DNA of 24,637 nucleotides from a virus, in UHGV virus genome UHGV-0173695. One strand, given 5' to 3'. The notes under the pieces are model-generated. The model saw nothing but the letters and a program-made list of their open reading frames with translations. It was not told the origin of the DNA and searched no databases. Of the stretch, positions 4,905-15,093 are shown in pieces. Numbering within the stretch: position 1 is the stretch's first letter; each line of letters opens with the position of its first letter. The position numbers and the translations under genes were made by a program.

Positions 4905-5293
4905 GCCGGATAGGCTCCGTGTGGTAACTGAAAATGCGGTCCGTCTTTCAGGGTCTTCCAGTCGCCGCCCCATTCCACCGGAATATTCAGTTCCCGGCTG
5001 GCCTGTCTGAATGCTGCTGCGATTTTTTCGTACAGCGGCCATTCCCATGACACCTGGCTGCCGATATAAGCCACAACATCCACGGCATGCCCCGTAAGGT
5101 GGCGGCTGTTCATGGTCTGGCTCTTACCCGTGGCCACCAGTTGCTTCTGGCGGTAACGGCTGCGCAACCCTTCGGTGATACCAAAATCCACTTCCGAGAT
5201 TTCCAGTGCCCGTCGGGTCACTTTCACCAGATCAGGATTTACGCCCTGCAAATTCTTTTCGCTCCGGCTGCTGAATTTAAATGTGTTGCTCAT
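4901..5293 (-). CDS. Endolysin, peptidase M15-family (L-alanyl-D-glutamate endopeptidase type)
   Basis: 130 aa; zinc-binding signature SRHLTGHAVDV (H-x6-D) with a downstream His, characteristic of M15 peptidoglycan peptidases; located between holin and spanins. Not a P2 gpK-type lysozyme. Confidence 0.8.
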   Translation of the reverse strand: MSNTFKFSSRSEKNLQGVNPDLVKVTRRALEISEVDFGITEGLRSRYRQKQLVATGKSQTMNSRHLTGHAVDVVAYIGSQVSWEWPLYEKIAAAFRQASRELNIPVEWGGDWKTLKDGPHFQLPHGAYPA

Positions 5294-5613
5294 TCGTCCT
5301 TCTCCTTCACCCTGCGATTAAAGGCCGCAATAACCTTGTCGCGTGCTTTCTCTGCCCCCATAAAACCGATTGATGCGCCGATAAACGTCACGGCATCTTC
5401 AGGAAAACCGAAGAAGCGCAACGACCCGGCCACGGCCATGGCAAGAACGCCGCACGCCAGCGATCCCGTTACGGTCTGAACCAGTGTTCGTCCGTCATAA
5501 AGACTCATCAGCGCGGAAATGCTGACCGCCGCGCCTACTGCATACACCGTTGGCAGGTGGTCAAAGAGCCACGCAATAACCTGCTCTGTGATCCCTGTTT
5601 GAATGGTGCTCAC
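5290..5613 (-). CDS. Holin (putative, P2 gpY position)
   Basis: Proposed GTG start at 5613 directly after the X stop, preceded by GGGGGGAG Shine-Dalgarno; product has 2-3 hydrophobic segments and a charged C-terminus (RRVKEKDE); stop overlaps the endolysin ATG (ATGA). The exact start is uncertain. Confidence 0.6.
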   Translation of the reverse strand: MSTIQTGITEQVIAWLFDHLPTVYAVGAAVSISALMSLYDGRTLVQTVTGSLACGVLAMAVAGSLRFFGFPEDAVTFIGASIGFMGAEKARDKVIAAFNRRVKEKDE

Positions 5614-9327: not shown

Positions 9328-11079
9328 ATGATTCAGGACGCTTTTGTGCGCCAGCGTGCGCGGCAACTTTACTGGCAGGGTTATCCGCCCGCAGAAATAT
9401 CACGTCTGATGGGAATAAACCCGAACACGATTTATGCGTGGAAAAAACGTGACCAGTGGGATGAAACGCCACCCGTGCAGCGTGTCACGCAGTCCATCGA
9501 TGCGCGCCTCATCCAGCTTACTGAAAAACAGAATAAAACAGGCGGTGACTTTAAGGAAATAGACCTGCTGACCCGGCAGCTTAAAAAACTGCATGATGGC
9601 CAGCCGGATGCGACGGTCACAGGAAAGAAAGGCCGGGCGAAAAAACTCAAAAATCATTTCACGCCGGAACAGATTGCCGCACTGCGGGAAAAAATCATCA
9701 GCAGGCTGGAGTGGCATCAGCGGGGCTGGTTTGACTCCCTGACCCTTTGCAGGGAAGCCGGGATACGTAACAGGATGATCCTGAAATCCCGACAGATTGG
9801 GGCGACCTGGTATTTTGCACAGGAAGCGCTGCTGATGGCGCTGCGTGACGATGTGGCGCAACCTTACCAGCGTAACCAGATTTTTTTGTCTGCGTCGCGT
9901 CGTCAGGCGTTCCAGTTTAAAAGCATTATTCAGAAGGCCGCGGCTGAAGTTGATGTGGAGCTGAAAGGGGGCGATAAAATCATCCTCTCCAACGGCGCAG
10001 AGCTGCATTTTCTCGGCACTTCTGCTGCGTCGGCACAGTCCTATACGGGCAATTTTTATTTTGATGAATTTTTCTGGGTCAGTCGCTTTGCTGAACTGCG
10101 CAAGGTGGCTGGCGCTATGGCAACCCTCAGCGGACTGCGGCGCACCTACTTCTCCACGCCATCCACCGAAACGCACGAGGCATACGCCTACTGGAACGGC
10201 GACCGCTGGAACGAGAAAAAGGCCTCGCATAAACGCCAGCGTTTTTCTGTGGACTGGAAAACGCTGCATAACGGGCTTATCTGCCCTGACCGGACGTGGC
10301 GGCAAATTGTCACGCTGGAAGATGTGGTTAATCACGGCTGGAAACACACCGATATTGACGAAATCCGTGATGAAAACACCGAAGACGAGTTCCTCAATCT
10401 CTATATGTGTGAGTTTGTTCGCGAAGGGGAATCGGCATTTAACCTGAATATCCTGATTGGCTGCGGTGTTGACGGATACGACGACTGGAAAGACTGGAAA
10501 CCTTTTGCTCCCCGCCCGATGGGGAATCGTCCGGTATGGATTGGGTATGACGCAAACGGCAGCAGTGGCAACGGCGACAGCGGCGCTGTGTCCGTGGTGG
10601 TTCCTCCGGCTGTTCCTGGTGGCCGTTTTCGAACGGTGGAGACGCGACGCGTTCAGGGGCTGGAGTTTGAAGAACAGGCCAGAGTCATTGAAGAGTTCAC
10701 GTATCGCTACAACGTGGAACACATCGGCATTGATGTGACGGGCGGGAACGGGGAGGCTGTTTATCAGATAGTGAAACGGTTTTTCCCTGCTGCTATTCCG
10801 TACACCTTCACGCTGTCATCAAAACGGTCGCTGGTACTGAAAATGCTGCAAATAATGCGTGCCGGGCGGTGGGAATACGATCGCGCCGAACGCGAGCTGG
10901 TCGCGGCCTTTAACGCCGTGCGTAAGGTGAAAACACCGGGCGGCTTTATCACTTACGAAACGGACCGCGCGAGGGGGATCAGCCACGGCGACCTTGCGTG
11001 GGCAACCATGCTTGCTGTCATTAACGAACCGATTGGCGGCGAAGGAGAAAACGAGCGTTTCACGGTTATGGAGTTCTGA
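9328..11079 (+). CDS. P: Terminase large (ATPase) subunit P
   Basis: 583 aa; begins MIQDAFVRQRARQLYWQGYPPAEISRLMG with an N-terminal HTH as in P2 gpP; stop overlaps the Q start (TGATG). Confidence 0.95.
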   Translation: MIQDAFVRQRARQLYWQGYPPAEISRLMGINPNTIYAWKKRDQWDETPPVQRVTQSIDARLIQLTEKQNKTGGDFKEIDLLTRQLKKLHDGQPDATVTGKKGRAKKLKNHFTPEQIAALREKIISRLEWHQRGWFDSLTLCREAGIRNRMILKSRQIGATWYFAQEALLMALRDDVAQPYQRNQIFLSASRRQAFQFKSIIQKAAAEVDVELKGGDKIILSNGAELHFLGTSAASAQSYTGNFYFDEFFWVSRFAELRKVAGAMATLSGLRRTYFSTPSTETHEAYAYWNGDRWNEKKASHKRQRFSVDWKTLHNGLICPDRTWRQIVTLEDVVNHGWKHTDIDEIRDENTEDEFLNLYMCEFVREGESAFNLNILIGCGVDGYDDWKDWKPFAPRPMGNRPVWIGYDANGSSGNGDSGAVSVVVPPAVPGGRFRTVETRRVQGLEFEEQARVIEEFTYRYNVEHIGIDVTGGNGEAVYQIVKRFFPAAIPYTFTLSSKRSLVLKMLQIMRAGRWEYDRAERELVAAFNAVRKVKTPGGFITYETDRARGISHGDLAWATMLAVINEPIGGEGENERFTVMEF

Positions 11080-12125
11080 TGAGCAGAAAAAATAAAAAAG
11101 TGCGCATGAGTTCACGCATTGATCTCGCTGATGCGCTCAGGAAAGAATCGTCGCTCAGTGCATTCACATTTGATGGTCCTTATCGCCTGACCGGGCATGA
11201 TTTGCTGGACAATATGTACTGTGCTGATAACGGGCGGTGGTATGAAACCCCGGTGGACTGGTACGGTCTGGCAAGAGCTGCCCGGCAAACGTCCTGGCAT
11301 CAGTCTGCGCTTTACTTTAAGCGCAATGTATTGCTCGGTTGCTATATTCCGCACCCGCTGCTTTCCCGGCAGGATTTCTCGGCGCTGGCGCTGGACTGGT
11401 TTGTGTTCGGTAACGCATTCCTTGAGCTTCGAAGCAATATGCTCGGCGAACCGCTTAAATTACGGCACGCCCTGGCGAAATACATGCGACGCGGAAGCGA
11501 TCTTGAATCATGGTGGTATGTGCAGGATGGCAAGGACGCGTTTCAGTTTCGCCCTGGCAAAGTGTGCCACCTGATGAATCCGGATATTAACCAGGAAATC
11601 TACGGCATGCCGGAATATCTCGGCGCATTACTCTCGGCCAGCCTGTCTCATTCGGCGGACATGTTCAGAAAACTGTATTACGACAACGGATCCCACGCCG
11701 GGTGCATCATCTACATCGGTGCAGCGCAGGTAAACCGCGAAAGCATGGACTCCCTGAAAGAAACGTTACAGGGTGCGCGTGGTGGTGGTGCATTTAAAAA
11801 CGTGCTCATTCATGCGCCCAACGGTGGCAAAGAAGGTGTGCAAATTTTGCCGTTCCAGCAGATCACAGCAAAGGATGAGTTCATGAATGTTAAGGCGGCA
11901 TCCCGTGATGATGTGCTGGCTGCGCACCGCGTTCCGCCGCAACTGATGGGGGCGATGCCGGGTGAAAAAAGTGCGTTTGGTGATGTGGAGAAGGCCGCGC
12001 GGGTTTACGCAATTAACGAGCTGATGCCCGTCATGGAGGCCATGAAGCACATCAATGACTGGCTTGGCGAAGAGGTGATCCGCTTTAACCCTTACGCACT
12101 GTTAGATACCCAGCCCACATCCTGA
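11079..12125 (+). CDS. Q: Portal protein Q
   Basis: 348 aa, size as P2 gpQ; immediately follows P; followed by a hairpin and the non-coding cos-proximal region. Confidence 0.9.
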   Translation: MSRKNKKVRMSSRIDLADALRKESSLSAFTFDGPYRLTGHDLLDNMYCADNGRWYETPVDWYGLARAARQTSWHQSALYFKRNVLLGCYIPHPLLSRQDFSALALDWFVFGNAFLELRSNMLGEPLKLRHALAKYMRRGSDLESWWYVQDGKDAFQFRPGKVCHLMNPDINQEIYGMPEYLGALLSASLSHSADMFRKLYYDNGSHAGCIIYIGAAQVNRESMDSLKETLQGARGGGAFKNVLIHAPNGGKEGVQILPFQQITAKDEFMNVKAASRDDVLAAHRVPPQLMGAMPGEKSAFGDVEKAARVYAINELMPVMEAMKHINDWLGEEVIRFNPYALLDTQPTS

Positions 12126-12152
12126 CGCGCTTCGCTTGTCTGCTGCTTCGCC

Positions 12153-12175
12153 GGGGCATAAAAAATTTATGCCCC
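12153..12175 (+). terminator. Hairpin downstream of Q (GGGGCATAAA-aaa-TTTATGCCCC); weak terminator candidate
   Basis: Perfect 10-bp inverted repeat 28 bp after the Q stop; no clear T-tract follows, so its function as an intrinsic terminator is uncertain. Confidence 0.35.
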
Positions 12176-12549
12176 GACTCTCCAGCTCCTGTATCAATCA
12201 GATAATTTCACGACGCCTTCCAGTTTATCGCCACCATCGACGGTCAGACTCTTACGCAATCCTACCGCGTTGACTGTATGTTCTCGCCGCCTCAGTGCGA
12301 TTTTGACGGCCTTACCTTTCCCCCCATCAAATCAAAAGCCCTCACATCTTTTTCACGCTCAGCGTGAGAAATATGGCCATTCTGTTGTGTCGCTGCGACA
12401 TCGCTCAGGGAATGCTATTTACCCCCTGAAACGCGGGCTGTTCCCCCGTCACCTGCGCGCAGAAAAAACGCGTTTTTTTGTGCACGCACGGATCCTTGAC
12501 GGATCCAGCCGCCACGCGGGCCGGAAGGGCAAAAAGTCGTTCAAAAAAA

Positions 12550-12576: not shown

Positions 12577-12872
12577 GTTTGAAAATGAGCATATATTTAA
12601 CACGCGCGTTAGCTTGAGTTGACTAAAAATTTCAGTGGATTGGGCGAGGTGAAACTATAAACGCAAAATCCCAGTGACTAGCTAACAACAATCCCAGAGT
12701 GTGTTTGAATCTGGAGGGGTTAATATGAAAGATTGTTTGACAAATTTGATGTTTTCTAAATGCGTTAACCACTATGAGGCGGAGAGTGCATCTCCGCCTT
12801 TGTATGTGCGTCGGGCATGGCACGCTCGTTTCGTTTGTGCGCCCGTTCAGGGTTTCATTCTCTGATATTCAG

Positions 12873-13160
12873 TCAGCGTGGATAAATTAACTTGAATTTG
12901 AGGAAGTTTTGTTTAATCCAGTCTTTAACATTTTCCCTTCCCTGAATACCTGATGGTAAGTGTTCGTGAATCATCCATTCGACAATGAGTTTCTCTTTCA
13001 GGGAGTATGCCTTAAAGGAATTAAGCATATTTAGTACTTCATAACCCTCTTTGCGGCTAAACCGATGGCGGTCAGCAGCGGTTTTCGTGGGATCATCTCC
13101 TGGCAAAGCAGTCCAACTGTAATCGTCATAAAATAAATCGCTTCTTTTAATATCGGTCAT
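12873..13160 (-). CDS. Hypothetical protein, 95 aa, AT-rich; cargo gene at the tin/old position
   Basis: Complete ORF; weak Shine-Dalgarno (AAGGA) upstream; a stem-loop (CCACCTC...GAGGTGG) lies in the 66-bp gap from the upstream gene; no family recognised. Confidence 0.45.
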   Translation of the reverse strand: MTDIKRSDLFYDDYSWTALPGDDPTKTAADRHRFSRKEGYEVLNMLNSFKAYSLKEKLIVEWMIHEHLPSGIQGRENVKDWIKQNFLKFKLIYPR

Positions 13161-13226
13161 TTGATTATCCTTTTCAGAAGAACCACCTCTCCAACTATTG
13201 TTGAGGTGGTGAAAAAGCAGAAATCG

Positions 13227-13505
13227 TTATGCAGCTTTGAGCAGTGCGCTGCTCATTGCATAGTCGTACCCAAGCATGTATGCCTCAAAGGCGTCTTTAT
13301 GTCTGACTGTGCCAGCCTGGCTATATGGAATATTTGCCAGGAAGGAATCATCTTTAGCTTTAGGAATACCGATCATTGCGTGAAGTACACCAAGCTCGTA
13401 TGCGCAGGCAGCGCAGCGGTGGCGGCCTGTCTGTCCCTGGTTATCGGGAAGGTGTGAGTATTGGGGGTTGTATCGGTGGGAGTTTTTACAAATCTTTATA
13501 CCCAT
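13227..13505 (-). CDS. Hypothetical protein, 92 aa; cargo gene at the tin/old position
   Basis: Complete ORF with GAGGT about 9 nt upstream of the ATG; no family recognised; the overlapping plus-strand ORFs look less protein-like. Confidence 0.45.
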   Translation of the reverse strand: MGIKICKNSHRYNPQYSHLPDNQGQTGRHRCAACAYELGVLHAMIGIPKAKDDSFLANIPYSQAGTVRHKDAFEAYMLGYDYAMSSALLKAA

Positions 13506-13611
13506 ATTTGATTTACCTCAATAAAATGAGGTGTTCACCTTTACATGGGCACACGCAGAAAATACGATTCCGGCGAGCTCAAGAGGTAGATGACACCTCG
13601 ATTTCTTTGGC

Positions 13612-13642
13612 GCCCCAATAGTTACCGCTATTGGGGCGTTTT
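13612..13642 (+). terminator. Rho-independent terminator-like hairpin (plus strand)
   Basis: Perfect 10-bp stem GCCCCAATAG / CTATTGGGGC with loop ttaccg, followed by GTTTT. Confidence 0.5.
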
Positions 13643-13784
13643 CCTATGCATGACACACAAACAAAGTGGTCATATCGTGATCGATCCTACAAAATCCCAT
13701 ACAACTGTCAAGGGTATTGATCGTTTTAATCGATAGATAAATCAATATCTATCTGTTTAACAGATCGATTATTAGGGTAAACAT

Positions 13785-13807
13785 GAAAAAACACCCGTGA
13801 AGGGTGT
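13785..13807 (-). terminator. Rho-independent terminator downstream of the parR-like gene (minus strand)
   Basis: Minus-strand hairpin ACACCC-ttca-CGGGTGT followed by a T-run (plus strand AAAAAACACCCGTGAAGGGTGT), 8 bp after the ParR stop. Confidence 0.55.
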
Positions 13808-13814
13808 TTGTAGG

Positions 13815-14129
13815 TTATTCTGGGAAAAACTCCTGAATGTTCCTTTTTAACTGGCTCTTACTGTGACTGTTTTCTGTTGCAGATGTGCCAGTATGCTTGT
13901 TTCGGATGTTATTTCTTGGTGGTATTGCTTCCTCTTCCTGCCATTCAGCCAGCCAGTAAGCAAAGGCGGGATCGCTTTTAATAAGCGCCAGTCCAGCCAG
14001 AAATGCCGCGCGTTGCGCGCGGCTGCGTTCGGAGGCTGGCAGGCTGTCGAGATAATTACACGCTTCTCGTTCACTCTTGACGGCTGCTGGCTTCAGATAG
14101 AAACTTATCCGTCTGGTTGGAGTCGTCAT
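13815..14129 (-). CDS. parR: ParR-like centromere-binding protein (ribbon-helix-helix, type II partition)
   Basis: Internal start MTTPTRRISFYLKP...NYLDSLPASERSRAQRAAFLAGLALIKSDP closely resembles plasmid R1 ParR as I recall it; AGGAG Shine-Dalgarno 7 nt upstream; start 5 bp after the ParM stop. Track ORF 13815..14264 has an N-terminal extension overlapping parM. Confidence 0.75.
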   Translation of the reverse strand: MTTPTRRISFYLKPAAVKSEREACNYLDSLPASERSRAQRAAFLAGLALIKSDPAFAYWLAEWQEEEAIPPRNNIRNKHTGTSATENSHSKSQLKRNIQEFFPE

Positions 14130-14133
14130 TGGT

Positions 14134-15093
14134 TTACTCCTTGTCCATTGCGTACAGCCCATTAACCAGAGCAAACTGTGGCACCCCGTCCGCGATGAAA
14201 GTCGCATTAACTCCGCAGGCTTCGCGGATAGCGGGTGCCACAATCTCCGCCCCGCCACCGACAACCATCACCCGCCCGTAACCCGAAAACCCCGCCAGCG
14301 CGCGGATCACTCGTTGTTTCAGTGTTTCTTCCTTTTCACGAATAACCGCCATCAGGCTGGCGTAATGCGCGTCATTGTGGATGTGCTGGCGCAACCAGGC
14401 TTCATCATGGCGATGTTCGATAATGGTATTGGCGATGTGGTGACTGGTGCGCATACCGTTAGTGGCCATCACCGACAGTACGGCATCGGCCATCAGAGAA
14501 ACGCCTACGTGTGGATCGCAAAACACCTGGCTGATACCTGCCAGTTGCCCCTGAACCTTTGCCACATCCAGCGTGGTTCCGCCCAAATCCACAATCAGCA
14601 GGGATTCAAACGGACTCATGTCAGCCAGTGCCTTAAAGCCAGCCGGAATGGATTCAGGCATAACCCGCACGTTACGGATAGTGAATGCTTCGCCGTTCTG
14701 GTACTCCACCGGGCGCATAACGTTCGCTTTTTTGCGGTTGATGTTGGCCATGTCCGGCTGTGCGTTTGTGTCGAAATATTCGCTCAGTGGCAGGGTGACA
14801 ACCACATCCACTTCCTGTGGTGTGATGCCTGATTTGACCAGCGCGTGATGAATGGCAATGACATTCACATCGCTGTACTGGTATTGCGTGTCGGTCGTCT
14901 GGACAAAGCGATCGCTGACCGGATCAAAACCATAGCGCACGCCATCAAGCATGTAGTTCGCGGGCTGCGTGCCACCGAACGGCGCAGACCATTCCGACTT
15001 GAAGCTGTTTGGGCTGATGGCGTTGCGGCGTTCGCCGTTCTCAGTCCATGCCAGCTTGATGTTGGTGGAGCCGTCATCGATACAAATTTTCAT
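14134..15093 (-). CDS. parM: ParM/StbA-family actin-like ATPase (type II partition motor)
   Basis: 319 aa; N-terminus MKICIDDGSTNIKLAW (R1 ParM begins MLVFIDDGSTNIKLQW as I recall); further matches ISPNSFK, YSDVNVIAIHHAL, DLGGTTLD, VMVVGGGAE. Confidence 0.9.
   Translation of the reverse strand: MKICIDDGSTNIKLAWTENGERRNAISPNSFKSEWSAPFGGTQPANYMLDGVRYGFDPVSDRFVQTTDTQYQYSDVNVIAIHHALVKSGITPQEVDVVVTLPLSEYFDTNAQPDMANINRKKANVMRPVEYQNGEAFTIRNVRVMPESIPAGFKALADMSPFESLLIVDLGGTTLDVAKVQGQLAGISQVFCDPHVGVSLMADAVLSVMATNGMRTSHHIANTIIEHRHDEAWLRQHIHNDAHYASLMAVIREKEETLKQRVIRALAGFSGYGRVMVVGGGAEIVAPAIREACGVNATFIADGVPQFALVNGLYAMDKE

What the first reader, a model, noticed from the sequence alone, without database searches (positions are those of the whole stretch)
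12873..13505. Two small co-oriented genes of unknown function in the cos-proximal cargo locus
Two minus-strand ORFs (92 aa then 95 aa) lie between the cos region and the par cassette, in the same variable locus. Neither resembles a P2 core protein or any family I recognise. The downstream gene is markedly AT-rich and a stem-loop separates the two. A small two-gene unit at this position is a plausible candidate for an uncharacterised defence, anti-defence or toxin-antitoxin module.
Basis: inference. Interest (0 to 1): 0.65.

Follow-up and report, generated by a model that had tools for sequence, protein, structure and literature searches.

The report
Two unrelated prophage cargo genes, one sRNA-guarded
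The two small genes are real but are not a working pair: each is independent cargo in a known variable spot of a P2-like prophage, and the upstream one belongs to a widespread, undescribed cassette that appears to be silenced by its own antisense RNA and by Dam-methylation sites.

Summary
Two minus-strand ORFs (92 aa at 13227-13505, 95 aa at 12873-13160) lie in the P2 gpA-gpQ hotspot. Both are under purifying selection, the downstream one has low GC (0.40), and a hairpin separates them.

The 'two-gene module' reading does not hold. The genes co-occur only in one narrow lineage. 75 loci with an orfA homologue lack orfB, about 60 loci with an orfB homologue lack orfA, and 64 of 67 prophages with a ≥99%-identical ParM have neither.

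orfA encodes a zinc-knuckle protein (C6, H10, C31, C34; two SQxGxxRHK repeats) with no Pfam, PDB or PADLOC match. Its domain is fused elsewhere to HNH and NOV_C nucleases, DpdB/DndB-like and WYL proteins. It travels as a cassette found in three classic accessory-gene sites of temperate phages. The cassette has a promoter with positionally conserved GATC sites, a ~170-nt leader that occludes the SD and AUG, and a predicted ~75-nt cis-antisense sRNA (+ strand, 13572-13647). The sRNA has a conserved promoter and a covarying terminator. This design resembles type I toxin-antitoxin loci and IS10; toxicity is inferred, not shown.

orfB is a solitary member of a pan-bacterial family of ~100-aa proteins. 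It often sits beside defence genes and has no fixed partner.

The parts
12873..13160 (-). orfB: 95-aa helical protein, a solitary member of a pan-bacterial family of ~100-aa proteins with no Pfam entry. Conserved motifs: YSWxxxPGDDPxKT, RFSRxEGYEVL and EWMIHExLPxxxQGR.
   Evidence: ORF. dN/dS 0.06-0.28. More than 1000 clusters, all about 100 aa. Alignment A2. AF2 pLDDT 86.7. No PDB or BFVD fold match.
13182..13210 (-). Terminator-like hairpin between orfA and orfB (ACCACCTC...GAGGTGGT followed by TCTTCTG). It probably acts as a leaky terminator of the orfA transcript, so orfB would be expressed by read-through (inferred).
   Evidence: Inverted repeat I5. Fold. Compensatory stem changes and a TTTTTCT tail in L016.
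13227..13505 (-). orfA: 92-aa protein with an invariant C6/H10/C31/C34 zinc knuckle and two tandem LPxSQxGxxRHK-helix repeats.
13506..13677 (-). Predicted orfA 5' leader (~172 nt), very stably folded. The SD GAGGT (13519-13515) pairs with ACCTC (13532-13528). The AUG region pairs with GCCCAUGU (13550-13543).
   Evidence: Fold -64.7 kcal/mol against -44.4 +/- 4.4 for shuffles, z -4.65. An SD-containing hairpin recurs with different sequences in the non-redundant groups. In 15 of the 17 groups the leader is 165-187 nt; L039 is 219 nt and L073 290 nt, the latter from a mispredicted promoter.
13684..13711 (-). Sense sigma-70-like promoter of orfA: -35 TTGACA (13711-13706), 16-nt spacer, -10 TAGGAT (13689-13684).
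   Evidence: 10 of 12 consensus match. Conserved in relatives.
13540..13568 (+). Antisense promoter inside the orfA leader: -35 TTTACA (13540-13545), 17-nt spacer, -10 TACGAT (13563-13568).
   Evidence: Promoter scan. CTTTACA is invariant and a TAnnnT -10 at 17-nt spacing is present in all 17 non-redundant groups.
13572..13647 (+). Predicted ~75-nt cis-antisense sRNA lying wholly inside the orfA leader. Its terminator hairpin spans 13611-13638 and is followed by TTTTCC.
   Evidence: Covariance model R1 hit of 42.5 bits, E 1e-8. 10 of 11 terminator pairs show compensatory changes. 74 hits in 92 orfA-bearing sources, one per locus and always antisense. Two weak hits in 989 kb of controls, one of them at the only orfA-bearing control locus. 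Rfam gives only sub-threshold hits, NsiR1 and sar.
13679..13766 (.). Cluster of four GATC (Dam) sites at 13679, 13683, 13719 and 13763. Two abut or overlap the sense -10 and one lies 8 nt upstream of the -35.
   Evidence: Positions. GATC is enriched 3.8-fold upstream of orfA homologues, 67 observed against 17.6 expected, and no other 4-mer palindrome exceeds 1.9-fold. A GATC sits at -46 of the sense TSS in 16 of 17 groups; others sit at +2..+4 of the sRNA and in the antisense promoter spacer.
13716..13769 (.). Imperfect 24-nt-arm palindrome just upstream of the orfA promoter. It is conserved in the P2-like variants only and could be an operator or a parC-like site (unresolved).
   Evidence: Inverted repeat I1. 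Conservation in alignment A3. Absent from the lambdoid versions.
13789..13809 (-). Intrinsic terminator ending the parM-parR operon, so orfA is not co-transcribed with par.
   Evidence: Terminator scan: 8-pair stem followed by TTTCATGTTT.
12585..13940 (.). The variable segment of this hotspot. The conserved flanks are portal plus cos up to about 12584, and ParM plus the N-terminal part of ParR from about 13941.
   Evidence: blastn of the window against 10 related loci.

Best explanation
The interval holds two independently acquired accessory genes stacked in the P2 gpA-gpQ hotspot. It does not hold a two-component system.

(1) orfA is the protein-coding part of a compact, self-contained cassette, about 13227-13720. 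The same cassette occurs in the P2 hotspot, in the cI-N ('rex') slot and in the Q-lysis slot of temperate enterobacterial phages.
- Shown by sequence and comparison: a sigma-70 promoter with GATC sites at conserved positions; a ~170-nt leader whose fold buries the Shine-Dalgarno and start codon; and a convergent ~75-nt cis-antisense sRNA (+ strand 13572-13647) with a conserved promoter and a covarying terminator.
- Inferred: in the resting, fully Dam-methylated lysogen, orfA synthesis is kept off by three layers, namely methylation-sensitive promoters, the antisense RNA and the occluded translation start. The protein is made only when this control lapses, for example on hemimethylated or unmethylated DNA during rapid phage replication, or when the unstable sRNA is lost.
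- Inferred: the product is a zinc-knuckle protein that binds nucleic acid. Its domain serves elsewhere as the non-catalytic N- or C-terminal module of HNH and NOV_C nucleases and of DpdB/DndB-like and WYL regulators. It is likely harmful or defensive when expressed, which gives type I toxin-antitoxin or IS10-like logic.

(2) orfB is a solitary member of a very large, strongly conserved family of ~100-aa helical proteins found across bacterial phyla. It sits on chromosomes, small plasmids and prophages, usually in variable or defence islands, and has no fixed partner. Here it sits behind orfA's leaky terminator and is probably expressed by read-through (inferred). Its molecular role is unknown; my best guess is a stand-alone regulator or accessory factor of neighbouring defence or mobile-element genes.
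For: Independence of the two genes:
- Co-occurrence only in one lineage.
- 64 of 67 loci with a ≥99%-identical ParM lack both genes.
- Cassette boundaries mapped.
- Discordant divergence between orfA and orfB.
- A covarying terminator-like hairpin between them.

The orfA cassette:
- Conserved upstream architecture in 10 unrelated phage contexts.
- Antisense promoter TTTACA-17-TAnnnT in 17 of 17 non-redundant groups.
- Terminator covariation in 10 of 11 pairs.
- The covariance model finds exactly one antisense hit upstream of orfA in 74 sources, including the untrained phages BIS08P22 and PSTCR7lys. It finds essentially nothing in 989 kb of controls.
- Leader fold z -4.65 with SD and AUG paired, a feature repeated across groups.
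- GATC enriched 3.8-fold at fixed positions relative to both promoters.
- Accessory-gene slots: cI-N, Q-lysis and the P2 hotspot.
- Domain fusions to PDC-S36/PD-T4-1-type NOV_C nucleases, an HNH REase, DpdB-like and WYL proteins.
- Linkage to Dam-class methyltransferases.
- Plasmid copies lie among TA and par genes.

orfB:
- More than 1000 clusters, all stand-alone, in 55 genome loci from many phyla with no conserved neighbour.
- Neighbours include AbiLi/AriA-like ATPases, reverse transcriptases, PD-Lambda-2_C, a type I R-M S subunit and integrases.
- Found upstream of the EcoVIII-type REase on pEC156-like plasmids.
- Found between an ATPase/helicase pair and Avs1 on pHG1.
Against: - There is no transcript or phenotype data. 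The sRNA, both transcription starts, Dam control and any toxicity are predictions.
- orfA is soluble and 92 aa, unlike typical type I toxins.
- In fusion proteins its domain is the non-catalytic partner, so a stand-alone copy has no evident effector.
- Distant orfA homologues (55% identity or less, including the R-M-linked and plasmid copies) lack the sRNA and the GATC enrichment. The regulatory shell is therefore clade-specific and says little about the ancestral function.
- In the window lineage the sRNA model scores only 42.5 bits, and this lineage was part of the training set.
- In this lineage orfB is immediately downstream with a good SD, so the two may be co-transcribed and could still cooperate locally.
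- The defence association of orfB neighbours is modest, about 10-15% of immediate neighbours.
Confidence: 0.6

Rival explanations
1. One reading: orfA and orfB form one functional two-gene module, such as a type II-like toxin-antitoxin, a defence pair or an anti-defence pair. They would be co-transcribed and act through a protein-protein interaction.
For: The genes are adjacent, co-oriented and 66 nt apart in a known defence hotspot. orfB has a good SD and no convincing promoter of its own, so it probably depends on orfA transcription. The pair is intact in all 7 E. coli genomes and 5 IMG/VR contigs of this lineage.
Against: There is no co-occurrence outside that lineage: 75 orfA loci lack orfB and about 60 orfB loci lack orfA. 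The two genes have different phyletic ranges, phage-restricted for orfA and pan-bacterial for orfB. Their divergence is discordant. A covarying terminator-like hairpin lies between them. Neither resembles any toxin, antitoxin or defence family.
Confidence: 0.08
2. orfA is not a toxin. It is a Dam-methylation-gated DNA- or RNA-binding regulator, or an anti-restriction or replication-coupled factor. It would be made briefly when the phage genome is hemimethylated or unmethylated, after infection or during lytic replication. Possible roles are binding GATC-containing DNA or modulating methyltransferase or repressor activity. The antisense RNA would merely sharpen the timing, as for IS10 transposase or P22 Ant/sar.
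For: GATC sites sit at fixed positions in both promoters. orfA-like genes overlap the start of a Dam-class methyltransferase in a MutH-like R-M locus and lie near D12-class methyltransferases in other phages. The protein has a zinc knuckle and basic RHK motifs. Its domain is appended to DNA-binding regulators (WYL, DpdB/DndB-like) and to nucleases as a likely targeting module. In P22-like phages it sits next to cI, in the same orientation.
Confidence: 0.27
3. The orfA cassette is an accessory of the ParMR partition locus, for example a parC-linked regulator or a post-segregational killer paired with par, like hok/sok with parMRC on plasmid R1. orfB would be irrelevant cargo.
For: In P2-like loci orfA always lies directly after parR. 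A conserved palindrome (13716-13769) lies between the parR terminator and the orfA promoter. A plasmid copy sits among par and TA genes.
Against: 64 of 67 loci with a ≥99%-identical ParM have no orfA. The same cassette occurs without any par genes in lambdoid phages. parMR ends in a strong terminator before orfA.
Confidence: 0.05

Closest known systems
Type I toxin-antitoxin loci with structured leaders (tisB/istR-1, hok/sok) and with soluble toxins (symE/symR, ralR/ralA)
   Same: A small cis-encoded antisense RNA has its own promoter and terminator inside or opposite the mRNA leader. The sRNA targets an upstream leader region rather than the SD itself, as in tisB/istR-1. The translation start is occluded by mRNA structure. 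The locus is carried by a prophage or plasmid. The comparison with these systems rests on established knowledge; the features themselves come.
   Different: The protein is 92 aa, not hydrophobic, binds zinc and belongs to a new family. Toxicity has not been shown. Both promoters carry positionally conserved GATC sites. There is no Rfam or Pfam match to any known type I system.
IS10 transposase control (RNA-IN/RNA-OUT plus Dam methylation of pIN)
   Same: Convergent sense and antisense promoters are combined with GATC sites overlapping promoter elements. This suggests expression bursts on hemimethylated DNA (analogy from established knowledge; GATC data).
   Different: orfA is not a transposase and there are no inverted-repeat ends. 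The antisense RNA does not cover the start codon. The cassette appears to move by recombination into accessory-gene slots of phages.
P2 gpA-gpQ hotspot cargo (Rousset et al. 2022, PMC9122126)
   Same: The position is the same, between the replication endonuclease gpA and the portal gpQ, next to cos. Turnover among close relatives is high. [quoted passage not shown]
   Different: That paper neither tested nor interpreted these two genes. The ParMR part is not a defence system. No anti-phage activity is known for either gene.
PADLOC candidates PDC-S36 / PD-T4-1 (NOV_C/DUF3883 nuclease proteins)
   Same: Proteins such as P0130 and P0133 carry one or two copies of the orfA zinc-knuckle/SQxGxxRHK unit at the N-terminus of a NOV_C nuclease. 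That nuclease domain matches PDC-S36 at E 3e-42 to 7e-50.
   Different: orfA has no nuclease domain and does not itself hit any PADLOC model. It corresponds only to the presumed sensor or targeting module.
R-M controller (C) proteins, as a comparison for orfB
   Same: On pEC156-like plasmids the orfB homologue is a ~97-aa gene directly upstream of, and co-oriented with, the EcoVIII-type restriction endonuclease gene. This is the position usually taken by a C gene.
   Different: No Xre-type HTH is detected. Most family members are nowhere near an R-M system. The papers on pEC156 read here do not mention the ORF.

Membership tests
Two-gene toxin-antitoxin or two-gene defence operon (orfA+orfB) | Both genes are conserved together across lineages | tested here: not met
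   Co-occurrence is found only where orfA is at least 93% identical. 75 orfA loci lack orfB and about 60 orfB loci lack orfA. 64 of 67 ParM-matched prophages lack both.
Two-gene toxin-antitoxin or two-gene defence operon (orfA+orfB) | Tight translational or transcriptional coupling (overlap or a very short spacer) | tested here: not met
   The spacer is 66 nt and holds a terminator-like hairpin that covaries in L016.
Two-gene toxin-antitoxin or two-gene defence operon (orfA+orfB) | Homology of either protein to a known toxin, antitoxin or defence family | tested here: not met
   No hit in Pfam, NCBIfam or PADLOC at E<=1. No PDB hit by sequence or fold.
Two-gene toxin-antitoxin or two-gene defence operon (orfA+orfB) | Toxicity of one gene neutralised by the other | not testable with these tools
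   This needs cloning and expression.
Type I toxin-antitoxin (orfA mRNA + cis-antisense sRNA) | A cis-encoded antisense sRNA with its own promoter and terminator overlapping the mRNA | tested here: met
   Computational evidence only. Conserved TTTACA-17-TAnnnT promoter, covarying terminator, and a covariance model that hits specifically upstream of orfA.
Type I toxin-antitoxin (orfA mRNA + cis-antisense sRNA) | A structured mRNA with a sequestered translation start | tested here: met
   Leader fold z -4.65 with SD and AUG paired. An SD hairpin recurs with different sequences in the other groups.
Type I toxin-antitoxin (orfA mRNA + cis-antisense sRNA) | The toxin is a small (usually under 60 aa) hydrophobic membrane peptide | tested here: not met
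   orfA is 92 aa, polar, has a zinc knuckle and is predicted to fold as a soluble helical protein. Soluble exceptions exist (SymE, RalR; established knowledge).
Type I toxin-antitoxin (orfA mRNA + cis-antisense sRNA) | Growth arrest on toxin expression, relieved by the sRNA | not testable with these tools
P2 gpA-gpQ hotspot cargo | Located between the replication endonuclease gpA and the portal gpQ, adjacent to cos, with high turnover among relatives | tested here: met
   Gene order. Flanks and variable segment mapped. Turnover among relatives. Definition of the hotspot in PMC9122126.
Known anti-phage defence systems (PADLOC-DB 2.0) | A match of the proteins to a defence-system model | tested here: not met
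   Neither protein matches any family. Only fusion relatives of the orfA domain hit PDC-S36, PD-T4-1, DpdB or HNH REase models, and they do so through their other domains.
R-M controller (C) protein (orfB) | An Xre-type helix-turn-helix | tested here: not met
Mu Com-type zinc-finger translational activator (orfA) | Sequence similarity to Com | tested here: not met
   hhalign probability 0.4%.

The most novel reading that the evidence does not exclude
The orfA cassette defines a new, widespread class of prophage- and plasmid-borne type I toxin-antitoxin or abortive-infection module. Its toxin would be a soluble zinc-binding protein that targets nucleic acid, homologous to the sensor module of PDC-S36-type nucleases. 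Its release would be gated both by a new antisense sRNA family and by the Dam-methylation state of the element's own DNA, so that it fires when the element, or a competitor, replicates out of step with the host. In the same reading, orfB would be the first recognised member of a pan-bacterial family of small proteins that ride along with and modulate neighbouring defence systems, including the EcoVIII R-M system of pEC156.
Probability: 0.2. Interest if true: 0.75.

Novelty: new variant of a known kind. Interest (0 to 1): 0.55.

Why it matters
The result corrects a plausible mis-annotation. Adjacency in a defence hotspot does not make a system, and here the two genes have separate histories.

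It also brings out an apparently undescribed unit: a new protein family, a new antisense sRNA family and fixed Dam sites. This unit recurs in three classic accessory-gene sites of temperate enterobacterial phages. One variant is present in 166 of 5426 complete E. coli genomes, and automatic annotation often misses the gene. If the predicted control is real, the unit is a compact natural example of a gene gated by methylation state and antisense RNA together. It would also give a handle on the function of a zinc domain found in candidate defence nucleases.

orfB points to a very large, highly conserved family of small proteins of unknown role that sit beside R-M, Avs and Abi-like genes. One member lies on the well-studied plasmid pEC156, so it could be tested directly.

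Tried and rejected
- Family searches (Pfam, NCBIfam, PADLOC) found nothing for either protein. PHROGs returned only families of unknown function.
- PDB sequence-profile searches found nothing significant. The best hit was Vps28 at E 0.08 for orfB, which I reject as chance.
- Megablast of the locus against the phage and plasmid collections found no match.
- I tested whether orfA is related to the zf-C4_ClpX protein that precedes a Dam methylase in Pectobacterium. hhalign gave probability 5%, so I reject it.
- I tested similarity to Mu Com and reject it.
- Rfam gave only sub-threshold hits at the sRNA (NsiR1 E 0.0027, sar E 0.1). No family matched in other cassette-bearing loci, apart from an unrelated sRNA-Xcc1 hit in L081.
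- A LexA box in the orfA promoter was ruled out by eye: CTGT-N3-ACAG has the wrong spacing.
- The apparent 541-aa fusion of orfB in L117 is an ORF-calling artefact in high-GC DNA.
- The idea that orfA is obligately linked to parMR is rejected by the ParM-anchored survey.
- A leaderless orfB promoter (TGGAGA-18-GATAAT) is implausible because the start would fall after the ATG.
- Literature searches for the PHROG identifiers and for a matching type I system found nothing relevant.
Full report
**Setting.** The window is a P2-like prophage. Terminase large subunit (9328-11079, +) and portal (11079-12125, +) are followed by the cos region. On the minus strand come orfB (12873-13160), orfA (13227-13505), ParR (PF10784; real start probably at 14129), ParM (14134-15093) and a 940-aa gpA-type replication endonuclease. 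Near-identical E. coli prophages are annotated the same way. This is the gpA-gpQ hotspot of Rousset et al. 2022. They note that about a quarter of P2-like phages carry a partition system there (PMC9122126). [quoted passage not shown]

**Observation check.** The ORFs, their lengths and their strand are as stated.
- Both are genuine genes. orfA has dN/dS 0.02-0.13, with 39 synonymous against 6 non-synonymous changes versus L016. orfB has dN/dS 0.06-0.28.
- GC is 0.396 for orfB and 0.491 for orfA, against 0.53 for the window.
- The intergenic hairpin (13182-13210) exists. L016 keeps it through compensatory changes, and there a TTTTTCT tail follows it.
- Neither protein matches Pfam, NCBIfam or PADLOC. 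Both fall in PHROGs of unknown function.

**Are the two genes a unit? No.**
- Over 99 loci, tblastn finds the pair only where orfA is at least 93% identical (L001-3, L012-16). 75 loci with orfA homologues at 37-68% identity have no orfB within 5 kb. orfB homologues at 59% identity or less have no orfA.
- A further 55 genome loci with orfB homologues, from Proteobacteria, Clostridium, Bacteroidota, Campylobacterota, Spirochaetes and others, contain no orfA.
- In about 34 IMG/VR P2-like loci the order is gpA-ParM-ParR-orfA (89 aa, 63% identical) followed directly by the cos flank, with no orfB.
- Anchoring on ParM instead, 64 of 67 evaluable loci with a ≥99%-identical ParM have neither gene.
- The variable segment of the window is 12585-13940, with conserved flanks on both sides.
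- Against L002, orfA is 96.4% and orfB 76.8% identical at the nucleotide level, so the two have been exchanged separately.

**orfA, the protein.**
- Alignment of homologues shows invariant C6, H10, C31 and C34, and an invariant SQAGxVRHK motif.
- Longer relatives reveal that the domain is an internal duplication of 'LPxSQxGxxRHK + helix'.
- A full-database profile search finds 502 representatives. They include fusions to DndB/DpdB-like proteins (domain at the C-terminus), a WYL regulator, an HNH_2 nuclease, and NOV_C nucleases that match the PADLOC candidate PDC-S36 and PD-T4-1.
- In these fusions the orfA unit is the non-catalytic module. I infer that it is a nucleic-acid-binding or sensor domain.
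- Distant stand-alone homologues overlap the start of a Dam-class methyltransferase in a locus with a second methyltransferase, a MutH-like endonuclease and a C protein. Others lie on plasmids among TA and par genes, usually unannotated.

**orfA, the cassette.** The parMR operon ends in a strong terminator (13809-13789), and a TTGACA-16-TAGGAT promoter (13711-13684) follows it. Aligning the upstream regions of orfA homologues from ten unrelated phage contexts shows a shared architecture.

In all 17 non-redundant groups with orfA at 57% identity or more:
- An invariant CTTTACA lies 34-56 nt upstream of the ATG on the opposite strand. A TAnnnT hexamer follows at 17-nt spacing.
- The sequence transcribed from this promoter folds into a GC-rich hairpin with a T-rich tail, preceded in most groups by an upstream stem-loop.
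- The terminator stem differs in sequence between groups but stays paired, with 10 of 11 pairs showing compensatory changes.

A covariance model built from these sequences behaves specifically:
- It finds 74 hits in 92 orfA-bearing sources (821 kb). Each is single, antisense and 60-170 nt upstream of orfA. They include two sequenced phages that were not in the training set: Salmonella phage BIS08P22 and Providencia phage PSTCR7lys.
- In 989 kb of control loci it gives two weak hits, and one of those is the only control locus that carries orfA.
- In the window the hit is 13572-13647 on the + strand (42.5 bits).
- Rfam has no family for this RNA.

The predicted sense leader (13677 to 13490) folds at -64.7 kcal/mol against -44.4 +/- 4.4 for shuffles, z -4.65. 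Its Shine-Dalgarno and AUG are both paired. An SD-containing hairpin recurs with different sequences in the other groups. The leader is 165-187 nt in 15 of the 17 groups; L039 is 219 nt, and L073 is 290 nt because of a mispredicted promoter. Blocking the sRNA target lowers the predicted SD accessibility in 14 of 17 groups and leaves it unchanged in three; this is a crude model.

**Dam sites.**
- GATC is 3.8-fold enriched in the 250 nt upstream of orfA homologues, 67 observed against 17.6 expected. No other 4-mer palindrome exceeds 1.9-fold.
- The positions are fixed. A GATC sits at -46 of the sense start in 16 of 17 groups (all 17 if L073's mispredicted promoter is corrected). Another sits at +2..+4 of the sRNA in most groups, another inside the antisense promoter spacer in 11, and another at or overlapping the sense -10 in the window type.
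- The window has four GATC in 88 bp (13679, 13683, 13719, 13763), against one per 385 bp overall.
- This combination resembles IS10 control (RNA-OUT plus Dam) and type I TA designs such as tisB/istR-1. That comparison is an inference from established knowledge.
- Distant orfA homologues at 55% identity or less lack both the sRNA and the GATC enrichment.

**Where the cassette sits.** It occupies the P2 gpA-gpQ hotspot, the cI-N 'rex' slot of a P22-like phage and the Q-lysis slot of a lambdoid Providencia phage. All three are classic accessory-gene positions. The L042-type variant is in 166 of 5426 complete E. coli genomes and the window type in 7. PGAP often leaves the gene unannotated.

**orfB.**
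- The family has more than 1000 90%-identity clusters, all about 100 aa, stand-alone and unnamed.
- Sequence conservation is strong: 40-60% identity between phyla.
- There is no hit in 50,697 phage records.
- Neighbours vary and gaps to them are usually 30-450 nt.
- Immediate neighbours include AbiLi/AriA-like ATPases, Beta_protein/PD-Lambda-2_C, reverse transcriptases, a type I R-M S subunit, Xre-MbcA antitoxins and integrases.
- On pEC156-like ColE1 plasmids the homologue lies directly upstream of the EcoVIII-type HindIII-family endonuclease gene. The pEC156 papers read here do not mention this ORF.
- On Cupriavidus pHG1 it lies between an ATPase/helicase pair and Avs1.
- I conclude that orfB is a solitary gene associated with variable and defence islands. 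Its role is unknown.

**Mechanism, with levels of support.**
- Shown by comparison: the two genes are independent, the cassette architecture is conserved, the sRNA promoter and terminator are conserved, the GATC positions are conserved, and the leader is structured.
- Inferred: the transcription starts, repression of orfA translation by the sRNA, sensitivity to Dam, nucleic-acid binding by the zinc domain, harmful or defensive activity of the protein, and read-through expression of orfB.
- The main rival for orfA is a non-toxic, methylation-gated regulator or anti-restriction factor.
- The par-accessory idea and the two-gene-module idea are poorly supported.

**Verdict.** What is there is an apparently undescribed, antisense-guarded cassette studded with Dam sites, next to an unrelated orphan gene. 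I rate it a new variant of a known kind, of moderate interest.

Noticed in passing
window 13815-14129 (parR), breakpoint near 13941; loci L157-L236: Prophages with a ≥99%-identical ParM carry ParR proteins that are only 49-78% identical to the window's ParR, apart from L164 and L167, which are 100% identical. DNA homology to relatives stops inside parR at about 13941. The C-terminal half of ParR and whatever lies downstream are therefore swapped as part of the hotspot.
   Followed up: partly
window 13716-13769: An imperfect palindrome with 24-nt arms (ATCGAT and AGATAG motifs) lies between the parR terminator and the orfA promoter. It is conserved in the divergent L042-type P2-like loci but absent from lambdoid versions of the cassette. 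It could be a parC-like centromere placed downstream of parR, or an operator.
   Followed up: partly
L237 (NZ_CP091669.1) 1138-1431; L239 (pEC886) 386-664: A 97-aa orfB homologue (54% identical) sits directly upstream of, and co-oriented with, the EcoVIII-type HindIII-family restriction endonuclease gene. It is found on 4.3-kb pEC156-like ColE1 plasmids and on the 9.3-kb pEC886, in the position a C protein would take. The pEC156 papers read here do not discuss this ORF.
   Followed up: partly
L008-L011 (Logan SRR324065xx contigs), e.g. L008 960-1226: An 88-aa orfA homologue overlaps by 11 nt the start of a Dam-class (MethyltransfD12) methyltransferase. A second methyltransferase, a convergent MutH-like endonuclease and an HTH C protein follow. 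This looks like a GATC-type R-M locus with an extra zinc-protein gene.
   Followed up: partly
L002 8338-8616, L003 8627-8905; hits H15, H16, H19-H21: NCBI PGAP leaves the intact orfA gene unannotated in several complete E. coli genomes, for both the window type and the L042 type, although it is under strong purifying selection.
   Followed up: yes
L002 7414-7671; L016/L096 (cluster 33): In some relatives an Ogr/Delta-like zinc-finger gene lies between the portal gene and orfB, inside the hotspot. The window has none at that position.
   Followed up: no
L240 (Cupriavidus necator pHG1) 4995-5297: An orfB homologue lies between an AAA ATPase/helicase gene pair and an annotated AVAST type 1 system (avs1a/avs1b), so it sits inside a plasmid defence island.
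   Followed up: no
window 12152-12176 and 12777-12799: Two perfect hairpins lie outside the finding. CGGGGCATAAA/TTTATGCCCCG sits just after the portal stop and is probably the P-Q operon terminator. AGGCGGAGA/TCTCCGCCT sits in the segment shared with L219, downstream of orfB, and on the + strand is followed by TTTGT.
   Followed up: no
L081 2804-2893 (-): An Rfam sRNA-Xcc1 match above the gathering score (59.9 bits) lies about 1.1 kb from the orfA homologue in an IMG/VR contig. It is unrelated to the antisense RNA described here.
   Followed up: no
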